Source: Patescibacteria group bacterium (GTDB lineage Bacteria > Patescibacteriota > Patescibacteriia > JAQUQO01). From it: a stretch of 64,000 bases of DNA. The notes under the pieces are model-generated. The model saw only the letters and a program-made list of their open reading frames with translations. It did no database searches and was not told the origin of the DNA. This document shows, piece after piece, positions 25,254 to 51,778 of this stretch. The position numbers and the translations under genes are program-made. The stretch lies in NCBI GenBank assembly GCA_028716045.1, contig JAQUQO010000001.1, positions 725,176 to 789,175 on the forward strand. Direction: 5' to 3'. Positions within the stretch are counted from its first letter, which is position 1; the number at the start of each line of letters is the position of its first letter.

Positions 25254-25471
25254 TATTTCACGGTCTTTGAAAACCGTTTTTTAGCTAAAATTAGCAATCT
25301 TTGCGGTTACAACGTCTAAAAGTGGTTAGAGATATCCACGATAAAAAATCTCAAGAGACAATCACTTAGGTGTGGTGGTCTTATTAAGTAAATCCGTTTA
25401 ACTTAATATTCTCTTATATTTTGAGAGTTTTGTAGTCGGGGCTATTGTAAAATAGTTCCGATAAAACTCTT

Positions 25472-26950
<1,479 letters not shown>

Positions 26951-27061
26951 CTAGGGAGAAAAAACAGATAGAATGTTCGAATTCGACATTCTATCCATTT
27001 AGGTCGACTCCGAGCAATCGGAGTAACGTTGTAACCACAAAGGTCTGCTAATTAGTGAAAA

Positions 27062-27100
27062 AGATTGGCTCTTTACTCTTGATAATGCCAATCTTTTTTG
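27062..27100 (+). terminator. rho-independent terminator between 16S and tRNA-Ile
   Basis: AGATTGGC...GCCAATCT stem followed by TTTTTT. Confidence 0.6.
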
Positions 27101-27107
27101 GTATAAT
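27079..27107 (+). promoter_or_regulatory. promoter (TTGATA-17-TATAAT) overlapping the preceding terminator
   Basis: TTGATA sits in the terminator loop, followed by a 17-nt spacer and TATAAT at 27102-27107. Upstream of tRNA-Ile. Confidence 0.45.
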
Positions 27108-27203
27108 ACATAAATAAATTGAGGCCGTTGATTAATTTAACGGACTCATCCTGATCCCGCTTAGCGGGAGAAGGATCTCGGAACGCTACTTAAAAGACCC
27201 CTC

Positions 27204-27280
27204 GGGCGCGTAGCTCAGTTGGTTAGAGCGCCACTCTGATAAAGTGGAGGTCGATGGTTCAACTCCATCTGCGCCCACCA
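27204..27280 (+). tRNA. tRNA-Ile (anticodon GAT), CCA encoded
   Basis: Cloverleaf by eye: GGGCGCG acceptor, anticodon loop CTGATAA, T-arm GATGGTTCAACTCCATC. Confidence 0.85.
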
Positions 27281-27392
27281 AAGAAAGATATTTAAATACT
27301 CTTTTAACTGGCGGGATGATAAAATAGAAGTTGATAATAAAACTCTCGTAGTCCCGAGTATTCGGGACGGAGACCCCGACTTTATGTCGGGG

Positions 27393-27407
27393 CATCTGCG
27401 CCCACCA
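27393..27407 (+). repeat. duplicate of the tRNA-Ile 3-prime end (CATCTGCGCCCACCA), preceded by GC hairpins
   Basis: Exact repeat of the last 15 nt of tRNA-Ile lying about 125 bp downstream. It is preceded by CCCCGAC-TTTAT-GTCGGGG and GTCCCGA-GTAT-TCGGGAC hairpins. Confidence 0.7.
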
Positions 27408-27428
27408 AAATAAATAAAACCGGCGGGA

Positions 27429-27505
27429 GGGCACCTAGCTCAGTTGGTTAGAGCGTCACATTGACATTGTGAAGGTCAGAGGTTCAACTCCTCTGGTGCC
27501 CACCA
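27429..27505 (+). tRNA. tRNA-Val (anticodon GAC), CCA encoded
   Basis: Acceptor GGGCACC/GGTGCCC. Anticodon stem TCACA/TGTGA with loop TTGACAT. Confidence 0.8.
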
Positions 27506-27512
27506 AACATTT

Positions 27513-28091
27513 ATGGACAATCAACCGTCTGTTATAAAAAAATATATCCTGGAATCCCTGGAACAGCTTGAACCGGTGGACGAGCAGGAAATTCAGGATA
27601 AAAAGAAAATCAAAAATTTTTTGGTTTTGCATCCGCAAAATTTTTATGACATTGAAAATTATAAAGGCCACGTCACGGTAAGCGGTGTTATTGTCTGCCG
27701 CGACCAGCTATTGCTTTTTAAAAAAAATAAATCCTCTCCTTGGGGACAGCTTCATAATCATTGTGAGGAAGGAGAATTCCCCTTCGCCACCATAAAAAAA
27801 ATACTGGAAGAAAAAACCGGAATAACCGACCTTAAACCAAGGTTTATAGATGAGGAGGAAAGACCGCTCCCCTATCAATGTGAAGTTTATGACATAGATG
27901 TCACACCGGACATTAAAACCGACCCCAATCATACTCATTTTGATTTGCTGTATCTTTTTGATATTAAAGACAAAAAAGCAGAAACGGAATTATCAGGAGA
28001 AGCGAAATGGTTTCCCAAAAACGAAGCGGCTAAACTAAACAAGCGCCTGCGGAAAGTGATTATGAAATTAATGGGGAAAATAATAATGTAA
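27513..28091 (+). CDS. hypothetical protein (weak Nudix-like segment)
   Basis: ORF starts immediately after tRNA-Val. The GQLHNHCEEGEFPFATIKKILEEKTGI segment only loosely resembles a Nudix box. Confidence 0.4.
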   Translation: MDNQPSVIKKYILESLEQLEPVDEQEIQDKKKIKNFLVLHPQNFYDIENYKGHVTVSGVIVCRDQLLLFKKNKSSPWGQLHNHCEEGEFPFATIKKILEEKTGITDLKPRFIDEEERPLPYQCEVYDIDVTPDIKTDPNHTHFDLLYLFDIKDKKAETELSGEAKWFPKNEAAKLNKRLRKVIMKLMGKIIM

Positions 28092-28224
28092 AATACGCCG
28101 AGGTAGCCCTGCCTGCCGGCAGGCAGGTCAGCGGCCCGCTCGCAACGCCAAGACATCGTTTTGGCGGACGAGTAAATTAAAATATTAAATATTAGAAATA
28201 AGTTAGTGCATCTGCCATTCATTT

Positions 28225-28296
28225 GCCGAGGTAGCTCAGCGGTAGAGCGAAGGACTGAAAATCCTTGCGTCGTGAGTCCAACTCTCACCCTCGGCA
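28225..28296 (+). tRNA. tRNA-Phe (anticodon GAA)
   Basis: Acceptor GCCGAGG/CCTCGGC. Anticodon loop CTGAAAA. T-arm GTGAGTCCAACTCTCAC. Confidence 0.8.
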
Positions 28297-28302
28297 CAAA
28301 AC

Positions 28303-28361
28303 AAATTCAAAATTCAAAAATCAAAATTAAAAATGGGTACAAAATTTTTGAATTTTGAATT
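28303..28361. repeat. inverted pair of TTGAATTTTGAATT repeat units
   Basis: AATTCAAAATTCAAAAA at 28304-28320 is the reverse complement of TTTTTGAATTTTGAATT at 28345-28361. The same unit occurs twice inside tsaE. Confidence 0.7.
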
Positions 28362-28373
28362 TTTCATTTATGG

Positions 28374-28450
28374 CGGGGCATAGCGCAGTTGGCTAGCGCG
28401 CCTGCTTTGGGAGCAGGAGGTCGTGAGTTCAAGTCTCACTGCCCCGACCA
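28374..28450 (+). tRNA. tRNA-Pro (anticodon TGG), CCA encoded
   Basis: C1:G72 acceptor CGGGGCA/TGCCCCG. Anticodon stem CCTGC/GCAGG with loop TTTGGGA. Confidence 0.8.
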
Positions 28451-28473
28451 AGTTAAATCTTTTTAATAAAATT

Positions 28474-30357
28474 ATGGCTGAACCAAGATTTGGAGAAAAT
28501 TTTAATCCCGACGCAACCAATCGATTAGATATTCTTAAAAAGACAGAAGATCTACCCGAGTATGTTGACACTAGCCGAGAAATCAGGGAAGCGTTAAAAT
28601 CAACTATTGAAACCAGGGGATGGCCCGAATGTCCGGAAATTAAAACTGTTGAAGATTTATTTTTATTGGCCAAAAAAGAAGTAAGCCACAGGTGGACCGA
28701 GGGAGCGCAAAAAATTTTATGCGAACAGACAAAAAAATGGGCGGAAGAAATACCTGACAATCAAGAGAATAAAGAATTACGACAAACTCTTCTCTCTCCC
28801 GATTTACTAAGTAGTGAAATGGAGATGCAGAGATTCGGAGCGATGGAAAAATTACGAGACATCAACCCGTCAGCCTGGAGAACCCTATTATTGGCTTCAT
28901 CCGAAAGACAATTAGCCTCAATAGTTCTTCTAAGAAAATGGGCAGCGGATTTGCCGGAAGAAAATCTAAAATCTCTCGGAGTCAGCCGAACCGAATTAGA
29001 ATTACTGCTGGACTCTGCTGGTATTGTTGGAAAATATGTTGACCAAGCTTATATAAAACAAGTTGAGTTGGCTGATGCCCCCGGCGGATCGTCTAAAAGC
29101 GCTTGGGCGGGGAAAGTCGGCGCTGAATATCTTTACGATATTCAACCTTCACCCGAGAGCCAAACGGTTAAACCGACAAGCTACAAGGATGTCTTTGCTT
29201 TTGAATGGCCTAAATTAATTAATCGTTTTCAAGTTTTGGCCCAAAAAGTGGAAACCCTACTTGATGACAAAAAACTGCCGGAATCATATCGGGGTCTGCC
29301 GGAATATCTGCGAGAAATGTCACAAGTATATGGTTCTGAAAGTGTTTCGCCAAAAGAATTAAAAAAACTCTGGAACAGCTTGCTCGCGAAAAATTTGAAT
29401 CTGGCTAACGCCGGATGCCCGCTGATGTTTATCCCCCAAAGCTGCGATATGGTGGCCGGGGAAGCGGCTAAAATAGATGTGGAAATTCGCTTGGCTATTC
29501 AGACTCCGGAAACAAAAAAATTAACCCAAACGATGAATGATTTTGGGGGCGCCGCTCAAGAGCTCTTGGCTGAAAATAAGGATGCTTTAAAAAATTACTA
29601 CGACATCCCGGCGGTTGTTATTAATGTCCAACCCTTTGCTTTTGGCCCCAATTTATACTACTTTACCGAGGCCGAAGCCGGGAGAGAATCAATTCTTTTA
29701 CATGCTAATATAAATCAGGAGTTGTCATCCAAAGAGAGAATTCCGCTCTTGGAAAAAACCTTGGGACAACCAATTGATAAAAATAAATTTAAAGAGGCCT
29801 CAGGCAAAGATACGGTTCTTCATGAATTGGGCCATACGGTTTGCGTTGAAGATGACCCTTCTGTCAGAAAACGCATCGGCACTGGTTCTGACGCCGCTAT
29901 TATGGAAGAGCTAAAAGCCGAAACCGTAGGAATGGAAATACTGCTTAGAAAACAAACGGGCGATTCCAAAGAAAAAGAACAAATTATTGAACAACAATTT
30001 TTGGCTAAACTGGGAGCGCTGGAGCAATACTTAGCTTACTATTCCAGCGAACCTGGCAGCAGTACGGAGCGGTATTATTTTACCGGCGTGGCCATTATCT
30101 CAAAACTTTTAGAAGAAGACGTTTTAGTTGAGCTTGGAGATAAATACATAATTACCGACGCTGAACGCGGTCTGCGAATTATCGCCGATATGGGTTTAGA
30201 TATTCTTAAAAAAATCTATGCTAATACCGCTGACCAGCCAAAGAAAGTAAAAGAAGCAATGAAAGAATATGTTAGAGATGTTAAACAAAAAGAAAAAACT
30301 CCGCCGGTTGACAAATTTATCAAAAATGTTAAAAAGGATATCCGTGCTTCCAATTAG
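28474..30357 (+). CDS. large hypothetical protein with HExxH zinc-metallopeptidase-like motif
   Basis: ATG (MAEPRF) lies 24 nt after tRNA-Pro. VLHELGHTV motif near residue 455. No other recognisable domain. Confidence 0.5.
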   Translation: MAEPRFGENFNPDATNRLDILKKTEDLPEYVDTSREIREALKSTIETRGWPECPEIKTVEDLFLLAKKEVSHRWTEGAQKILCEQTKKWAEEIPDNQENKELRQTLLSPDLLSSEMEMQRFGAMEKLRDINPSAWRTLLLASSERQLASIVLLRKWAADLPEENLKSLGVSRTELELLLDSAGIVGKYVDQAYIKQVELADAPGGSSKSAWAGKVGAEYLYDIQPSPESQTVKPTSYKDVFAFEWPKLINRFQVLAQKVETLLDDKKLPESYRGLPEYLREMSQVYGSESVSPKELKKLWNSLLAKNLNLANAGCPLMFIPQSCDMVAGEAAKIDVEIRLAIQTPETKKLTQTMNDFGGAAQELLAENKDALKNYYDIPAVVINVQPFAFGPNLYYFTEAEAGRESILLHANINQELSSKERIPLLEKTLGQPIDKNKFKEASGKDTVLHELGHTVCVEDDPSVRKRIGTGSDAAIMEELKAETVGMEILLRKQTGDSKEKEQIIEQQFLAKLGALEQYLAYYSSEPGSSTERYYFTGVAIISKLLEEDVLVELGDKYIITDAERGLRIIADMGLDILKKIYANTADQPKKVKEAMKEYVRDVKQKEKTPPVDKFIKNVKKDIRASN

Positions 30358-30553
30358 GCCAAATCTTAAAAATTCGCGGGTGTCGCCTGCCTGCTCGCCT
30401 CGCTACCGCTATGGCGAAACAGGCCGGCAAGCAGGTATAGTGGTTTATTACCCGCCCGACTGCCTAGCGGCAGCAAGGCGAACGGGTGTCAGTCCCGCTA
30501 CAAGAGCGGGATTTCGTCCCGAGCACTCGGGTCTCAACCTTCCCAACATATTT

Positions 30554-50967: not shown

Positions 50968-51419
50968 ATATATTTTAAAAATTATTTTATTAATTATTAA
51001 AATTTTGGATAACAAAAAATCTCCCCACAAAGGAGTTTCGGGGGCGAGTTTAAACTAAAAGATGGATTGTTTTTCAGCTAAGATAAGCATGAAATTTTTG
51101 CCAAGCCGTTCACAATTTTTAATGGGAAAGTCCCTTTTTGCTTTGAACGGATTCCTTCTGACGAAGGAAAAATGGCTAATATAAAAGAAAAAACGCTCGA
51201 TAGAAATAATTGACTTTTACGTATCTTTTATACTAACAAAGTTTAAATAAACTGTCAAGCAATTCTAAGTTGTCAAGTATTTGATTCTTTTATCTAAAAT
51301 TAGCCAAAATTGACGAAATCTCTGATTTCTATCCACAAGCGCATATTAACCCACTAATAACACTTTATCCACAAAATTATTTTTTTATCTAATATTAGCC
51401 AAAAAATATGGGATGCGTC

Positions 51420-51448
51420 TTGACAAAATCGTTAAAATATGCTATTAT
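51420..51448 (+). promoter_or_regulatory. promoter (TTGACA-17-TATTAT), first of two near-identical tandem promoters
   Basis: GTCTTGACAAAATC...TATTAT. A second copy lies at 51590-51618 (GTCTTGACAAAATC...TATAAT). Confidence 0.45.
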
Positions 51449-51778
51449 AATTTGTTATGGATAAAAATCCGGACGATGTAACGCTTGACCCTGTCTTTAA
51501 AAAACTTGAGCCGGGCAAGATAAGGGGATTTAAAAAGCTTGAATTATATCAAAAAACCCTTATTTTTCAACAAAATTCAGGCAAGGGTCTTGACAAAATC
51601 ATCCGAATGTGGTATAATAAAAGGTTAAAAATAAATGAACTTTAAAACCTATTGGGGAGAGAGTTATCCCGATTTCTCGGGATAAGCCCAATTGTTTTTA
51701 TCGGCTTTATTATAAATTTATACCAGCAGATACCGTTAACCAGTATCTGCTGATATATGATATATATGGAAGCTTAAA

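What the first reader, a model, noticed from the sequence alone, without database searches (positions are those of the whole stretch)
27204..27407. Same hairpin(TTTAT) plus duplicated-3-prime-end module after tRNA-Ile
- CATCTGCGCCCACCA, the last 15 nt of tRNA-Ile including CCA, recurs at 27393-27407.
- It is preceded by GTCCCGA-GTAT-TCGGGAC and CCCCGAC-TTTAT-GTCGGGG hairpins.
- Two independent tRNAs sharing this layout argues for a systematic element rather than coincidence. It could be a tRNA-end mimic, a processing/termination structure, or serial integration scars.
Basis: seen in the sequence. Interest (0 to 1): 0.6.

Follow-up and report, generated by a model that had tools for sequence, protein, structure and literature searches.

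The report
Relic of a tRNA-targeting mobile hairpin cassette
The repeated tRNA-Ile end with two hairpins in front of it is most likely the gene-less footprint of a small selfish DNA element, found near tRNA genes in many mostly ultra-small (CPR) bacteria, that inserts into tRNA genes and duplicates part of the gene so that a working tRNA survives.

Summary
CATCTGCGCCCACCAAA (17 nt) occurs at 27266-27282, the tRNA-Ile 3' end, and again at 27393-27409. Two perfect 7-bp hairpins precede the second copy (27351-27368, 27374-27392). tRNA-Glu has the same layout (13938-14057).

It is not a terminator, a known RNA family or an integrase scar. The Glu copy reads GGGGTTCG | hairpin-CG-hairpin | CGATTCCCC...ACCA, which is a tRNA T-arm split at TTCG^A by a double hairpin.

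A metagenome scan found 84 non-redundant contexts of this module, beside tRNAs of at least 12 amino-acid types. 45 have the window's layout: complete tRNA, spacer, hairpins, 3' fragment. 17 carry a small GIY-YIG (UPF0213) nuclease gene next to the hairpins, and one ORF is visibly decaying. Hairpin stems show compensatory changes. Loops are mirror-symmetric across the two strands, which points to a DNA-level signal. Tandem arrays and a copy-number difference between otherwise identical contigs point to recent activity.

Best reading: an ORF-less relic of a tRNA-targeting homing-type cassette. The Ile copy is a divergent variant, matching the family model only in hairpin 2. The insertion mechanism is inferred. 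I found no published description of the element.

The parts
27204..27280 (+). Complete tRNA-Ile(GAT), the proximal and presumably functional gene
   Evidence: ARAGORN; Rfam tRNA 72.5 bits
27266..27282 (+). Proximal copy of the 17-nt direct repeat CATCTGCGCCCACCAAA: T-stem 3' strand from position 62, acceptor 3' strand, A73, CCA, plus 2 nt
   Evidence: family D8, 100% identity
27283..27316 (+). Probable continuation of the duplicated unit: AT-rich spacer ending in AACTGGCGGGA (27306-27316). This matches AACCGGCGGGA (27418-27428), which lies directly before tRNA-Val.
   Evidence: pairwise alignment; sequence. Inference: 10 of 11 nt match.
27317..27350 (+). AT-rich left part of the inserted DNA. 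It holds no ORF. In related loci this position holds the GIY-YIG gene or its remnant.
   Evidence: no GIY-YIG similarity in the window (tblastn); ORF-bearing equivalents L156, L171, L204
27351..27368 (+). Hairpin 1: GTCCCGA-GTAT-TCGGGAC (7 bp, 4-nt loop of the GNAT type)
   Evidence: sequence; DNA fold
27369..27373 (+). 5-nt linker GGAGA; canonical family members have CG here
27374..27392 (+). Hairpin 2: CCCCGAC-TTTAT-GTCGGGG (7 bp, 5-nt loop). This is the only part of the Ile module that the family model recognises.
   Evidence: model R1 gives 11.4 bits, E = 1.2
27393..27409 (+). Distal copy of the 17-nt repeat: a dead tRNA-Ile 3' fragment that starts in the T-stem, directly after hairpin 2
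   Evidence: D8
27410..27428 (+). Spacer and the AACCGGCGGGA leader directly before tRNA-Val(GAC) (27429-27505); distal copy of the extended duplication
13884..13956 (+). Complete tRNA-Glu(TTC). It ends ...GGTA-CTA, with no encoded CCA. The proximal repeat copy lies at 13938-13956.
   Evidence: D3
13992..14059 (+). Canonical sibling module. GGGGTTCG (T-arm 5' half), hairpin 1 at 14000-14017, CG, hairpin 2 at 14020-14038, then CGATTCCCCGTGGCGGTAC (14039-14057) ending in CCA (14057-14059). It is a tRNA-Glu T-arm split at TTCG^A by the double hairpin.
   Evidence: sequence; R1 gives 68.5 bits on + and 54.1 bits on - (this sequence was in the training set); (D3)
28097..28224 (+). Probably related element of a second type. 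The first 11 nt of tRNA-Phe (GCCGAGGTAGC, 28097-28107) are duplicated, followed by GC-rich hairpins (CCTGCCTG-CCGG-CAGGCAGG and others) and an AT-rich spacer, then the complete tRNA-Phe (28225-28297). The junction lies in the D-arm.
   Evidence: D14; DNA fold z = -2.8. The insertion is absent in relative L227, where tRNA-Phe follows the NUDIX stop codon after about 7 nt. L015 shows the same layout with the CCCCGAG-ATAAA-CTCGGGG hairpin.

Best explanation
The Ile module, and its Glu sibling, is the ORF-less footprint of a small selfish DNA cassette that targets tRNA genes. The cassette consists of a pair of adjacent GC-rich hairpins and, in complete copies, a gene of about 85 codons for a catalytic-domain-only GIY-YIG nuclease of the UPF0213 family.

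Inferred mechanism. The nuclease breaks the tRNA gene in the T-arm coding region. In canonical copies the break is at the palindromic TCGA of the T-loop, TTCG^AAT. Repair then copies in the cassette. In the insertions that survive, the tRNA segment beyond the break has been duplicated or supplied. The result is an intact tRNA on one side, and on the other side a dead tRNA fragment that abuts the hairpins.

Two mirror layouts result. Type B, the window's layout, is: complete tRNA, then an ORF or spacer, then GGTTCG-hairpins, then the T-loop through the 3' end. Type A is: tRNA 5' part up to TTCG, then hairpins, then CGAATCC, then the ORF, then a complete tRNA. Afterwards the nuclease gene decays and is deleted. 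What remains is what is seen at 27283-27409: an AT-rich spacer, two hairpins and a repeated tRNA end.

Shown here: the family exists; it is tied to tRNA genes and to the T-loop junction; hairpin pairing is conserved; it is associated with GIY-YIG genes; decaying ORFs, tandem arrays and a copy-number polymorphism exist.

Inferred only: that this nuclease makes the cut, where it cuts, how the duplication arises, and what the hairpins do. The hairpins may be a recognition or immunity signal read symmetrically on both DNA strands.
For: 1. The Glu module is a T-arm interrupted at TTCG^A by hairpin-CG-hairpin.

2. The hairpin scan of reference genomes found L028 and L085. Both have a tRNA-Ser 5' part ending GGGTTCG, the same two hairpins (inverted in L028), CGAATC, a GIY-YIG ORF and a complete tRNA-Ser. 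Pfam GIY-YIG scores are E = 2e-17 and 8e-16.

3. Five homologues of that protein were looked up and four brought in loci with partial tRNA duplications. L127, L128 and L233 carry the double-hairpin layout. L124 has a complete tRNA-Asn, a different small GIY-YIG ORF and a duplicated 3' end. The fifth, L228, has no tRNA nearby.

4. The metagenome scan gave 98 loci and 111 matches. After removing false positives and duplicates, 84 contexts remain: 45 type B without an ORF, 4 type B with an ORF whose ATG lies 0-6 nt after the tRNA end, 13 type A with an ORF, 11 ORF-less type A or arrays, 6 at contig ends and 5 orphans. The flanking tRNAs cover at least 12 amino-acid types.

5. In most type-B loci the distal fragment begins at the T-loop CGA(A/T)TCC, -19 from the tRNA end. 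The search pattern required those bases, so the independent support comes from the six loci found in other ways (window Glu, L028, L085, L127, L128, L233).

6. In hairpin 1, all 6 tested pairs show changes on both sides, 98.4% of cells are paired, and the covariation score is 0.444 against 0.108 in shuffles (0 of 500 reach it) and 0.02-0.08 in slid controls.

7. The loops are ATNC in hairpin 1 and GNAT in hairpin 2, or ATRAA and TTYAT. These are mirror images across the strands. The variable N does not covary, so loop-loop pairing is unlikely. The model scores the Glu module on both strands.

8. L222 keeps only a truncated ORF start, ATGTATTATATTTATATC....

9. L152 and L221 are 100% identical over 762 nt upstream but carry 1 and at least 2 units. 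Arrays occur in L142, L163, L149, L209 and L128.

10. In L233 the same double hairpin sits at CTCG^AAA in the anticodon loop of tRNA-Ser(CGA), which suggests a TCGA-type target (one example).

11. The order tRNA-Ile, module, tRNA-Val is shared by the window and by L135, L198 and L211.

12. No T-run terminator follows the hairpins, and there is no Rfam match even at E <= 1.
Against: The Ile module itself is atypical. It lacks GGTTCG and CGAATC, has GGAGA where canonical copies have CG, joins the tRNA fragment in the T-stem (position 62), and matches the family model only in hairpin 2 (E = 1.2). Its membership therefore rests on the shared hairpin 2, the shared layout, the Glu sibling and the Ile-Val synteny.

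No GIY-YIG gene lies in this 64-kb window, and the rest of the 812-kb contig could not be read.

Not every homologue of the nuclease lies beside a tRNA; L228 does not.

The minimal type-B forms have only 1-9 nt between the tRNA and GGTTCG (L133, L134, L146). Simple ORF decay explains these poorly. They suggest that the hairpin unit can also move without an ORF.

The complete tRNA keeps an intact T-loop, so how the invaded allele escapes re-cutting is unexplained. The arrays may be the consequence.

In roughly half of the type-B loci the distal fragment differs from the adjacent tRNA's 3' end. This fits replacement by a foreign donor gene, but other histories also fit.

No cleavage activity or specificity has been demonstrated for this nuclease subfamily.
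Confidence: 0.68

Rival explanations
1. The module works at the RNA level. It is co-transcribed with tRNA-Ile, and the two hairpins plus a second acceptor 3' strand with CCA act as a processing signal, a decoy or a tRNA-end mimic, for example for RNase P, RNase Z or the CCA-adding enzyme, or as a 3' stabiliser. Selection keeps it for that reason.
For: The hairpins are perfect and their pairing is kept through compensatory changes. The module lies on the tRNA strand between co-oriented tRNA-Ile and tRNA-Val, with no terminator in between. In the Ile spacer, GGCG and GATG (27310-27318) can pair with CATC and CGCC of the distal fragment, giving a mini acceptor/T-stem-like closure. ORF-less copies form the majority.
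Against: The two loops are mirror images across the DNA strands, which an RNA has no need for. The module also occurs inverted relative to the tRNA (L028) and scores on both strands. It also occurs upstream of tRNAs, attached to dead 5' fragments, and inside an anticodon loop. Distal fragments are often mismatched to the neighbouring tRNA, and CCA is retained no more often distally than proximally (6 against 5). The module associates with a nuclease gene and forms arrays. No Rfam family matches. Compensatory changes are equally expected for a DNA hairpin or cruciform signal.
Confidence: 0.12
2. These are classical att-site scars. A phage or integrative element with a tyrosine integrase inserted into the 3' end of the tRNA, duplicating it as attL and attR, and was later almost entirely deleted.
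For: Direct repeats made of a tRNA 3' end that begins in or near the T-loop are the hallmark of integrase-mediated insertion into tRNA genes (established knowledge; repeats shown).
Against: Only 110 nt (Ile) and 82 nt (Glu) lie between the repeats, and there is no integrase ORF. The same hairpin pair occurs beside tRNAs of at least 12 amino-acid types, whereas an integrase recognises one attB. Complete copies carry a GIY-YIG nuclease gene, and none of the ORFs seen next to modules is an integrase. The mirror type-A layout duplicates the 5' part, which integrases do not do. The module pattern has no match in IMG/VR viral contigs.
Confidence: 0.04
3. The hairpin pair is an autonomous miniature palindromic element, like a MITE or REP element or the fungal mitochondrial double-hairpin elements. 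An enzyme encoded elsewhere mobilises it. The GIY-YIG genes are separate hitch-hikers that merely share a preference for tRNA loci.
For: Most copies have no ORF, and some have only 1-9 nt between the tRNA and GGTTCG. Other double-hairpin families (TCCGCC-NNNN-GGCGGA pairs) and single TTTAT/ATAAA hairpins also sit beside tRNAs. One GIY-YIG homologue is not near a tRNA.
Against: In 17 of 84 contexts a GIY-YIG ORF lies within about 60-120 nt of the module, always on the tRNA strand and at fixed positions relative to the hairpins. Five homologues of the protein were looked up: three recovered the hairpin module (L127, L128, L233) and a fourth recovered a partial tRNA duplication (L124). No other candidate transposase was seen next to modules, though this was not searched systematically.
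Confidence: 0.14
4. Chance or local replication slippage produced an incidental short duplication next to unrelated hairpins.
For: None beyond the small size of the feature.
Against: There is a 17-nt exact repeat at Ile, a 19-nt one at Glu, and identical hairpin design at both. About 80 independent loci elsewhere share the architecture.
Confidence: 0.01

Closest known systems
Free-standing GIY-YIG homing endonuclease genes at tRNA loci (phage T4 SegB)
   Same: A GIY-YIG nuclease gene lies among tRNA genes, and its activity is tied to inheritance and rearrangement of the tRNA region. According to the abstracts of PMC2330249 and PMC13096335, SegB cuts site-specifically, leaving mostly 2-nt 3' overhangs, promotes preferential inheritance of the tRNA region, and can drive segmental amplification. 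That parallels the tandem arrays seen here.
   Different: SegB is a phage protein that, from my own knowledge, is much larger than 85 aa and has DNA-binding regions. Here the protein is an 82-93 aa catalytic domain only, of the UPF0213 type. The hosts are cellular, mostly CPR bacteria, and IMG/VR has no hits. The cassette carries a conserved double hairpin and leaves partial tRNA duplications joined at the T-loop.
Double-hairpin elements (DHEs) of fungal mitochondrial genomes (Allomyces, chytrids, Schizosaccharomyces)
   Same: Both are short GC-rich units that fold into two adjacent hairpins, scattered in AT-rich genomes, in intergenic regions and inside RNA genes. DHEs are thought to be mobile, and near-identical copies occur across species (PMC10085805, which cites Paquin et al. 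2000).
   Different: The hosts differ (organelles against bacteria). No sequence relationship was tested. The papers I read report no tRNA T-loop specificity, no partial tRNA duplication and no fixed nuclease partner for DHEs.
Mobile endonuclease ORFs that bring a replacement gene end, such as the Allomyces atp6 hybrid gene and fungal mitochondrial HEGs with duplicated gene termini
   Same: The logic is the same: the inserted DNA supplies or duplicates the gene segment it displaces, the gene stays functional, and the displaced original end survives downstream as a dead fragment. In loci such as L135 and L211 the dead fragment differs from the working gene, as expected if the working copy was imported.
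   Different: This comparison comes from my memory of Paquin et al. 1994 and was not read here. Those cases involve protein-coding genes and in-frame fusions. Here the target is a tRNA gene, and both 5' and 3' versions exist.
Integrative elements that target tRNA genes with tyrosine integrases
   Same: Direct repeats of the tRNA 3' end, starting in or near the T-loop, flank the inserted DNA, and the tRNA stays intact.
   Different: There is no integrase. The insert is 50-350 bp. One element family uses tRNAs of at least 12 amino-acid types. A mirror layout duplicates the 5' part.
Group I introns in Patescibacteria tRNA genes (PMC13011429)
   Same: Same phylum, and tRNA genes are interrupted by inserted sequence.
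   Different: Those are self-splicing introns at anticodon-loop position 35/36 within a single complete gene. Here the interrupted copy is a truncated fragment beside an intact gene. No ribozyme is detected. The paper contains none of the terms GIY-YIG, T-loop, T-arm, hairpin or duplication.

Membership tests
tRNA T-loop double-hairpin / GIY-YIG cassette family (defined here) | Two adjacent perfect GC-rich hairpins immediately followed by a fragment of the neighbouring tRNA's 3' part | tested here: met
   27351-27392 followed by 27393-27409. The same holds at tRNA-Glu and in 49 type-B contexts.
tRNA T-loop double-hairpin / GIY-YIG cassette family (defined here) | Canonical core GGTTCG-hp1-CG-hp2-CGA(A/T)TC, meaning a junction at TTCG^A of the T-loop | tested here: not met
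   For the Ile module, model R1 matches only hairpin 2 (11.4 bits, E = 1.2), the linker is GGAGA, and the junction is at T-stem position 62. This tRNA-Ile has T-loop TTCAACT, with no TCGA. The Glu module meets the feature fully (68.5 bits), but it was in the training set.
tRNA T-loop double-hairpin / GIY-YIG cassette family (defined here) | An associated UPF0213-type GIY-YIG ORF beside the hairpins | tested here: not met
   No GIY-YIG similarity anywhere in the window (tblastn at E <= 10). This is also the state of most family members, since 45 of 84 contexts lack an ORF. The rest of the source contig could not be read.
Free-standing homing endonuclease cassette | The nuclease cleaves the cassette-free target allele, and the cassette is copied in by repair | not testable with these tools
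   This needs biochemistry or genetics. Indirect support only: copy-number polymorphism between L152 and L221; a decaying ORF in L222; insertion present or absent at tRNA-Phe and tRNA-Pro when the window is compared with L227.
Integrase-type att scar at a tRNA gene | A tyrosine or serine integrase gene, or its remnant, between or next to the tRNA-end repeats | tested here: not met
   There is no ORF of 80 aa or more between the repeats other than mechanical antisense ORFs. In related loci the ORFs next to modules that were checked are GIY-YIG.
Intrinsic (Rho-independent) terminator | A GC-rich hairpin followed directly by a T-run | tested here: not met
   Hairpin 2 is followed by CATCTGCGCCC. 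The only scan hit in 26900-28500 is a 5-pair stem spanning the two hairpins, followed by CTTTATGTCG, and the hit count is no higher than in shuffles.
Described RNA families (Rfam 15), including group I introns and tRNA-like elements | A covariance-model match | tested here: not met
   No match in 27281-27428 even at E <= 1. At gathering threshold the window yields only the tRNAs and 16S rRNA.
Fungal mitochondrial double-hairpin elements (DHE) | Two adjacent GC-rich hairpins forming a short dispersed repeat in an AT-rich genome | tested here: met
   This is a structural analogy only.
Fungal mitochondrial double-hairpin elements (DHE) | Sequence homology to the described DHE consensus | not tested
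REP/BIME or IS200/IS605-derived palindromic elements | An associated HUH (Y1) transposase (RAYT or TnpA) and a characteristic tetranucleotide target | not tested
   No such gene was noticed next to modules in the loci inspected, but this was not searched systematically.

The most novel reading that the evidence does not exclude
The double hairpin together with the 85-aa UPF0213 GIY-YIG protein is a previously unrecognised class of bacterial mobile element. It uses restriction-like cleavage at short palindromes inside tRNA genes: TCGA in the T-loop or anticodon loop, and perhaps AGCT in the D-arm. It recognises its own ends as hairpins extruded symmetrically on both DNA strands. By importing whole or partial tRNA genes it drives tRNA gene replacement and horizontal exchange in CPR bacteria. 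This would also give the widespread UPF0213/YhbQ-like 'unknown function' family a first biological role.
Probability: 0.3. Interest if true: 0.8.

Novelty: new variant of a known kind. Interest (0 to 1): 0.62.

Why it matters
If correct, tRNA genes in the streamlined genomes of CPR/Patescibacteria are routinely invaded by a tiny nuclease-plus-hairpin cassette. The cassette leaves tRNA fragments, hairpin pairs and tandem arrays.

This would explain puzzling pseudo-tRNA ends, which can mislead tRNA annotation and att-site or prophage prediction. It also points to turnover and horizontal replacement of tRNA genes, because in many loci the dead fragment differs from the working gene.

It gives the small UPF0213 GIY-YIG proteins, a widespread family without an assigned role, a testable function and a candidate DNA target: TCGA within the T-loop-coding palindrome. 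It is a bacterial counterpart of two mitochondrial phenomena, double-hairpin elements and endonuclease ORFs that carry replacement gene ends.

The copy in this window is itself only an inert relic. Its value is as the lead to the family.

Tried and rejected
- **Terminator:** rejected. No T-run follows the hairpins.
- **Known RNA family, intron or tRNA-like element:** rejected. No Rfam match at gathering threshold or at E <= 1.
- **Integrase att scar:** rejected. There is no integrase, the insert is tiny, and many tRNA types are used.
- **Kissing-loop pairing between the two hairpin loops:** rejected. The variable loop position does not covary; among 4-nt loops the observed score is 0.81 against a shuffled mean of 0.84.
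- **The distal copy is the original end because it keeps CCA:** true for tRNA-Glu in the window but not general. Only the proximal copy has CCA in 5 loci and only the distal copy in 6, so the argument was dropped.
- **RNA-templated copying of the mature tRNA end:** disfavoured. The duplications run past the tRNA end into the spacer.
- **Phage origin:** no matches to either module pattern in IMG/VR.
- **Residual GIY-YIG coding signal in the window spacers:** none found.
- **Close relatives of the Ile locus:** the NUDIX neighbour has only one homologue, at 59% identity, on a 1-kb contig (L227). That contig starts too close to tRNA-Val to show a tRNA-Ile.
- **A second example of the Ile-type variant:** L100 has a similar double hairpin, but no tRNA lies nearby, so it was not used.
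- **The raw hairpin scan of reference genomes:** this mostly returned unrelated repeat families in Bacteroidota and Pirellula.
- **Single-crossover (Campbell-type) integration of one circular form:** I could not derive both the A and B layouts from it, so the mechanism is left open.
- **Literature:** seven searches found no description of the element.
Full report
**1. The observation**

The window comes from a 812-kb contig of a Patescibacteria (CPR) genome assembly, GCA_028711565.1. tRNA-Ile(GAT) lies at 27204-27280, downstream of the 16S rRNA gene (25470-26950). tRNA-Val(GAC) follows at 27429-27505.

The last 17 nt of the tRNA-Ile region, CATCTGCGCCCACCAAA (27266-27282), recur exactly at 27393-27409. 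Directly upstream of the second copy lie two perfect 7-bp hairpins. The first is GTCCCGA-GTAT-TCGGGAC (27351-27368). The second is CCCCGAC-TTTAT-GTCGGGG (27374-27392). GGAGA joins them.

tRNA-Glu (13884-13956) has the same arrangement. Its 19-nt repeat CGATTCCCCGTGGCGGTAC occurs at 13938-13956 and 14039-14057. The second copy is preceded by CCCCGTC-ATCC-GACGGGG, then CG, then CCCCGAG-TTTAT-CTCGGGG.

The TTTAT hairpin pattern matches only these two places in 64 kb, and none of 100 shuffles gave two matches. Both modules fold far better than shuffled sequence, with z = -4.5 and -4.9.

Aligning the two Ile units suggests the duplicated stretch is longer than reported. It runs from the T-stem through the spacer to an AAC(T/C)GGCGGGA motif that ends just before tRNA-Val. 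That leaves about 75 nt of inserted DNA, 27317-27392. The Glu duplication likewise continues at about 79% identity past the tRNA end. The copying therefore happened on DNA. It is not a copy of a mature tRNA.

**2. What the module is made of**

The Glu copy gives the key. It reads GGGGTTCG | hairpin 1 - CG - hairpin 2 | CGATTCCCCGTGGCGGTACCA. Without the hairpins this is the T-arm and acceptor 3' strand of tRNA-Glu (GGGGTTCGATTCCCC...). So it is a tRNA 3' fragment whose T-loop is split at TTCG^A by a double hairpin, with CG on both sides.

**3. Relatives**

A scan of one genome per species for the hairpin mostly hit unrelated repeat families. It also found two loci with the identical design: L085 (Candidatus Magasanikbacteria) and L028 (an unclassified MAG). 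Their order is:
- a tRNA-Ser 5' part ending in GGGTTCG;
- two hairpins, in inverted order in L028;
- CGAATC;
- an ORF of 87-93 codons;
- a complete tRNA-Ser.

The ORF is a GIY-YIG nuclease domain (Pfam E = 2e-17 and 8e-16). Its nearest solved structures are the UPF0213 proteins BH0048 and EF2693.

Five homologues of this protein were looked up, and four brought in loci with partial tRNA duplications:
- L127: tRNA-Ser, same layout.
- L128: tRNA-Tyr in a Moranbacteria genome. The cassette is followed by two serial inserts that end in repeats of the tRNA 3' end, which is the window's layout.
- L124: complete tRNA-Asn, a different small GIY-YIG ORF, then a repeat of the tRNA 3' end.
- L233: see section 5.

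The fifth, L228, has no tRNA nearby.

**4. Size and shape of the family**

I scanned the metagenome collection with GGTTCG-N(14-22)-CGCCCCG-N(5-11)-CGGGGCGAWTC. This returned 98 loci with 111 matches. After removing 16 false positives and 11 duplicate contexts, 84 contexts remain:

| Layout | Contexts |
|---|---|
| Complete tRNA, spacer, hairpins, 3' fragment (the window's layout, "type B") | 45 |
| Type B with the GIY-YIG ORF between tRNA and hairpins (ATG 0-6 nt after the tRNA end) | 4 |
| 5' fragment, hairpins, GIY-YIG, complete tRNA ("type A") | 13 |
| ORF-less type A, or arrays | 11 |
| Contig end | 6 |
| Orphan | 5 |

The neighbouring tRNAs cover at least 12 amino-acid types in type B, plus Tyr, Asn, Pro and Val elsewhere. 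In most type-B loci the dead fragment starts exactly at the T-loop CGA(A/T)TCC. The search pattern required those bases. The six loci found by other routes (window Glu, L028, L085, L127, L128, L233) show the same junction, so it is not an artefact of the pattern.

None of the patterns occurs in the viral contig collection.

**5. Signs of function and of mobility**

- **Stem covariation.** In an alignment of 41 distinct modules, all six testable pairs of hairpin 1 show changes on both sides. 98.4% of cells are paired. The covariation score is 0.444, against 0.108 in shuffles (0 of 500 reach it) and 0.02-0.08 for slid partners.
- **Strand symmetry.** The loops are ATNC in hairpin 1 and GNAT in hairpin 2, or ATRAA and TTYAT. 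These are mirror images across the two DNA strands. The variable position does not covary, which argues against loop-loop pairing. The covariance model scores the Glu module on both strands, 68.5 and 54.1 bits, and L028 carries the module inverted. This symmetry fits a signal read on DNA, for instance hairpins extruded on both strands and bound by a dimer, better than a signal read on RNA.
- **ORF decay.** L222 keeps only a truncated start of the nuclease ORF.
- **Recent change.** L152 and L221 are 100% identical over 762 nt upstream but carry one and at least two units. Arrays occur in L142, L163, L149, L209 and L128.
- **Target site.** In L233 the same double hairpin sits at CTCG^AAA in the anticodon loop of tRNA-Ser(CGA), again followed by the nuclease gene and a complete tRNA. 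This suggests the target is a TCGA-type sequence rather than the T-loop as such. It is a single example.
- **Mismatched fragments.** In roughly half of the type-B loci the dead fragment does not match the adjacent tRNA. In L135 and L211, for example, a tRNA-Ile(TAT) is followed by a tRNA-Ile(GAT)-like end. This would be expected if the working gene was imported and the resident end displaced.

**6. Most likely mechanism**

The Ile and Glu modules are footprints of a selfish cassette made of a double hairpin, with or without the nuclease gene. The inferred steps are:
1. The nuclease breaks the tRNA gene in the T-arm region.
2. Repair copies the cassette from an occupied allele.
3. Only events that duplicate or import the displaced tRNA segment leave a working tRNA, so only those are seen.
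4. The nuclease gene then decays.

None of these steps has been tested. I could not derive both layouts from a single simple recombination scheme. The very short spacers in some loci (1-9 nt) suggest that the hairpin unit may also move without an ORF. How the intact T-loop of the surviving tRNA escapes re-cutting is also unexplained, and the arrays may be the result.

**7. Where the Ile module stands**

It is a divergent member of the family:
- It has no GGTTCG or CGAATC anchors.
- Its linker is GGAGA rather than CG.
- Its junction is at T-stem position 62, and this tRNA-Ile has T-loop TTCAACT, without TCGA.
- Only hairpin 2 matches the model (E = 1.2).

Its assignment rests on four things: hairpin 2 is nearly identical to that of the canonical Glu sibling in the same genome; the overall layout is the same; the flanking repeats are perfect; and the order tRNA-Ile, module, tRNA-Val is shared with the canonical modules in L135, L198 and L211.

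**8. Rival explanations**

- An RNA-level role as a processing signal or tRNA-end mimic remains possible (about 0.12). The strand symmetry, the inverted and upstream occurrences, the mismatched fragments and the nuclease link all count against it.
- An independent palindromic element with hitch-hiking nucleases is a variant of the main idea (about 0.14).
- Integrase scars (0.04) and chance (0.01) are effectively excluded.
- A terminator is excluded because no T-run follows the hairpins.
- No Rfam family matches.

**9. Comparison with known systems**

The closest known systems are:
- free-standing GIY-YIG homing endonucleases in tRNA clusters, such as T4 SegB (PMC2330249, PMC13096335);
- the double-hairpin elements of fungal mitochondria (PMC10085805);
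- from memory and not read here, mitochondrial endonuclease ORFs that bring a replacement gene end;
- integrase elements that target tRNA genes.

The present family differs from all of them. It combines a catalytic-domain-only UPF0213 nuclease, a conserved strand-symmetric double hairpin, a junction at the T-loop TCGA, mirror 5' and 3' partial duplications, and a cellular, mostly CPR, host range.

Seven full-text searches, and a reading of the 2026 paper on Patescibacteria tRNA introns, found no description of it. The library covers open-access papers only, so an earlier description cannot be ruled out.

**10. Verdict**

The finding is real and is part of a systematic, apparently undescribed family of elements associated with tRNA genes. 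The copy in the window is an inert, ORF-less and somewhat atypical relic. I rate it a new variant of a known kind (homing-endonuclease cassettes and double-hairpin elements). Interest is 0.62. Confidence in the relic interpretation is 0.68.

Noticed in passing
window 28097-28224: The first 11 nt of tRNA-Phe (GCCGAGGTAGC) are duplicated upstream, followed by GC-rich palindromes (CCTGCCTG-CCGG-CAGGCAGG and CGCCAA...TTGGCG) and an AT-rich spacer before the complete tRNA-Phe. The relative L227 lacks this insertion, but it has a similar 13-nt 5' duplication before its own tRNA-Pro. L015 shows the same D-arm layout at tRNA-Thr, with a CCCCGAG-ATAAA-CTCGGGG hairpin. This looks like a second insertion site (after AGC/AGCT in the D-arm) for a related element.
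   Followed up: partly
window 30370-30553: A GC-rich cluster of hairpins lies directly upstream of tRNA-Gly (DNA fold z = -2.9). It begins with GCGGGTGT, which resembles the tRNA-Gly 5' end GCGGGAGT, and it contains GTCCCGAG-CA-CTCGGGTC, which resembles hairpin 1 of the Ile module. It may be another relic.
   Followed up: partly
window 27079-27107: There is a strong sigma-70-like promoter match (TTGATA, 17 nt, TATAAT with an upstream TG; 11 of 12) between the 16S rRNA gene and tRNA-Ile. The 16S gene is followed by tRNA-Ile, tRNA-Val and a NUDIX gene rather than by tRNA-Ala and 23S, so the rRNA genes appear unlinked here.
   Followed up: no
L233 1087-1660: The same kind of double hairpin is inserted at CTCG^AAA in the anticodon loop of a tRNA-Ser(CGA) 5' fragment. 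It is followed by the GIY-YIG gene, a complete tRNA-Ser(CGA) and then a T-loop-type module. A source names the protein as coming from a Deltaproteobacteria MAG, so the family may extend beyond CPR, or the contig may be mis-binned.
   Followed up: partly
L028 4850-5056: A tRNA-Ser-like gene appears to be split in two (5' piece GGAGGCGTGCGTGAGCGG..., 3' piece ...GGTTCGAATCCTCTCGCCTCCGCC) by a complete tRNA-Ser(TGA) nested inside it.
   Followed up: no
L222, about 100 nt upstream of the module (oriented context): The dead tRNA-Gln 5' fragment carries a further palindromic insertion in its D-loop (CCTCGGCCGTAGCCC...CCTACGGGCGAGG between TCGTC and TAACGG). Several small palindromic elements therefore pile up in dead tRNA copies.
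   Followed up: no
L133 2604-2634, L136 428-457, L158 7167-7196, L191 3785-3814, L192 827-856: A different double-hairpin family (paired TCCGCC-NNNN-GGCGGA-type hairpins with no linker) lies within about 10-100 nt of tRNA genes. In L191 it is flanked by GGGTTC...GATTCC, which are T-loop halves.
   Followed up: no
L004-L123, e.g. L009, L011, L012, L027, L036, L057: The hairpin CCCCGAA-TTTAT-TTCGGGG is part of a high-copy repeat in Bacteroidota, especially Prolixibacteraceae (gtcaCCCCGAATTTATTTCGGGGtctg ... gatcctgaaacaagt). Pirellula genomes carry another repeat (aatgcCCCCGAGTTTATCTCGGGGgat). Several phyla share the motif (a)gcctgCCCCGAATTTATTTCGGGG. Whether these relate to the CPR element is unknown.
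   Followed up: no
window 51402-51465 and 51572-51635: Two 64-nt direct repeats (70% identical) each contain TCTTGACAAAATC...TATAAT-like promoter hexamers, which suggests duplicated promoter regions.
   Followed up: no
window 27310-27318 with 27393-27402: In the Ile spacer, GGCG and GATG can pair with CATC and CGCC of the distal fragment. This closes the two hairpins into a mini acceptor/T-stem-like structure. The same GGCGGGA motif precedes tRNA-Val, so the pairing may be a by-product of the duplication.
   Followed up: partly
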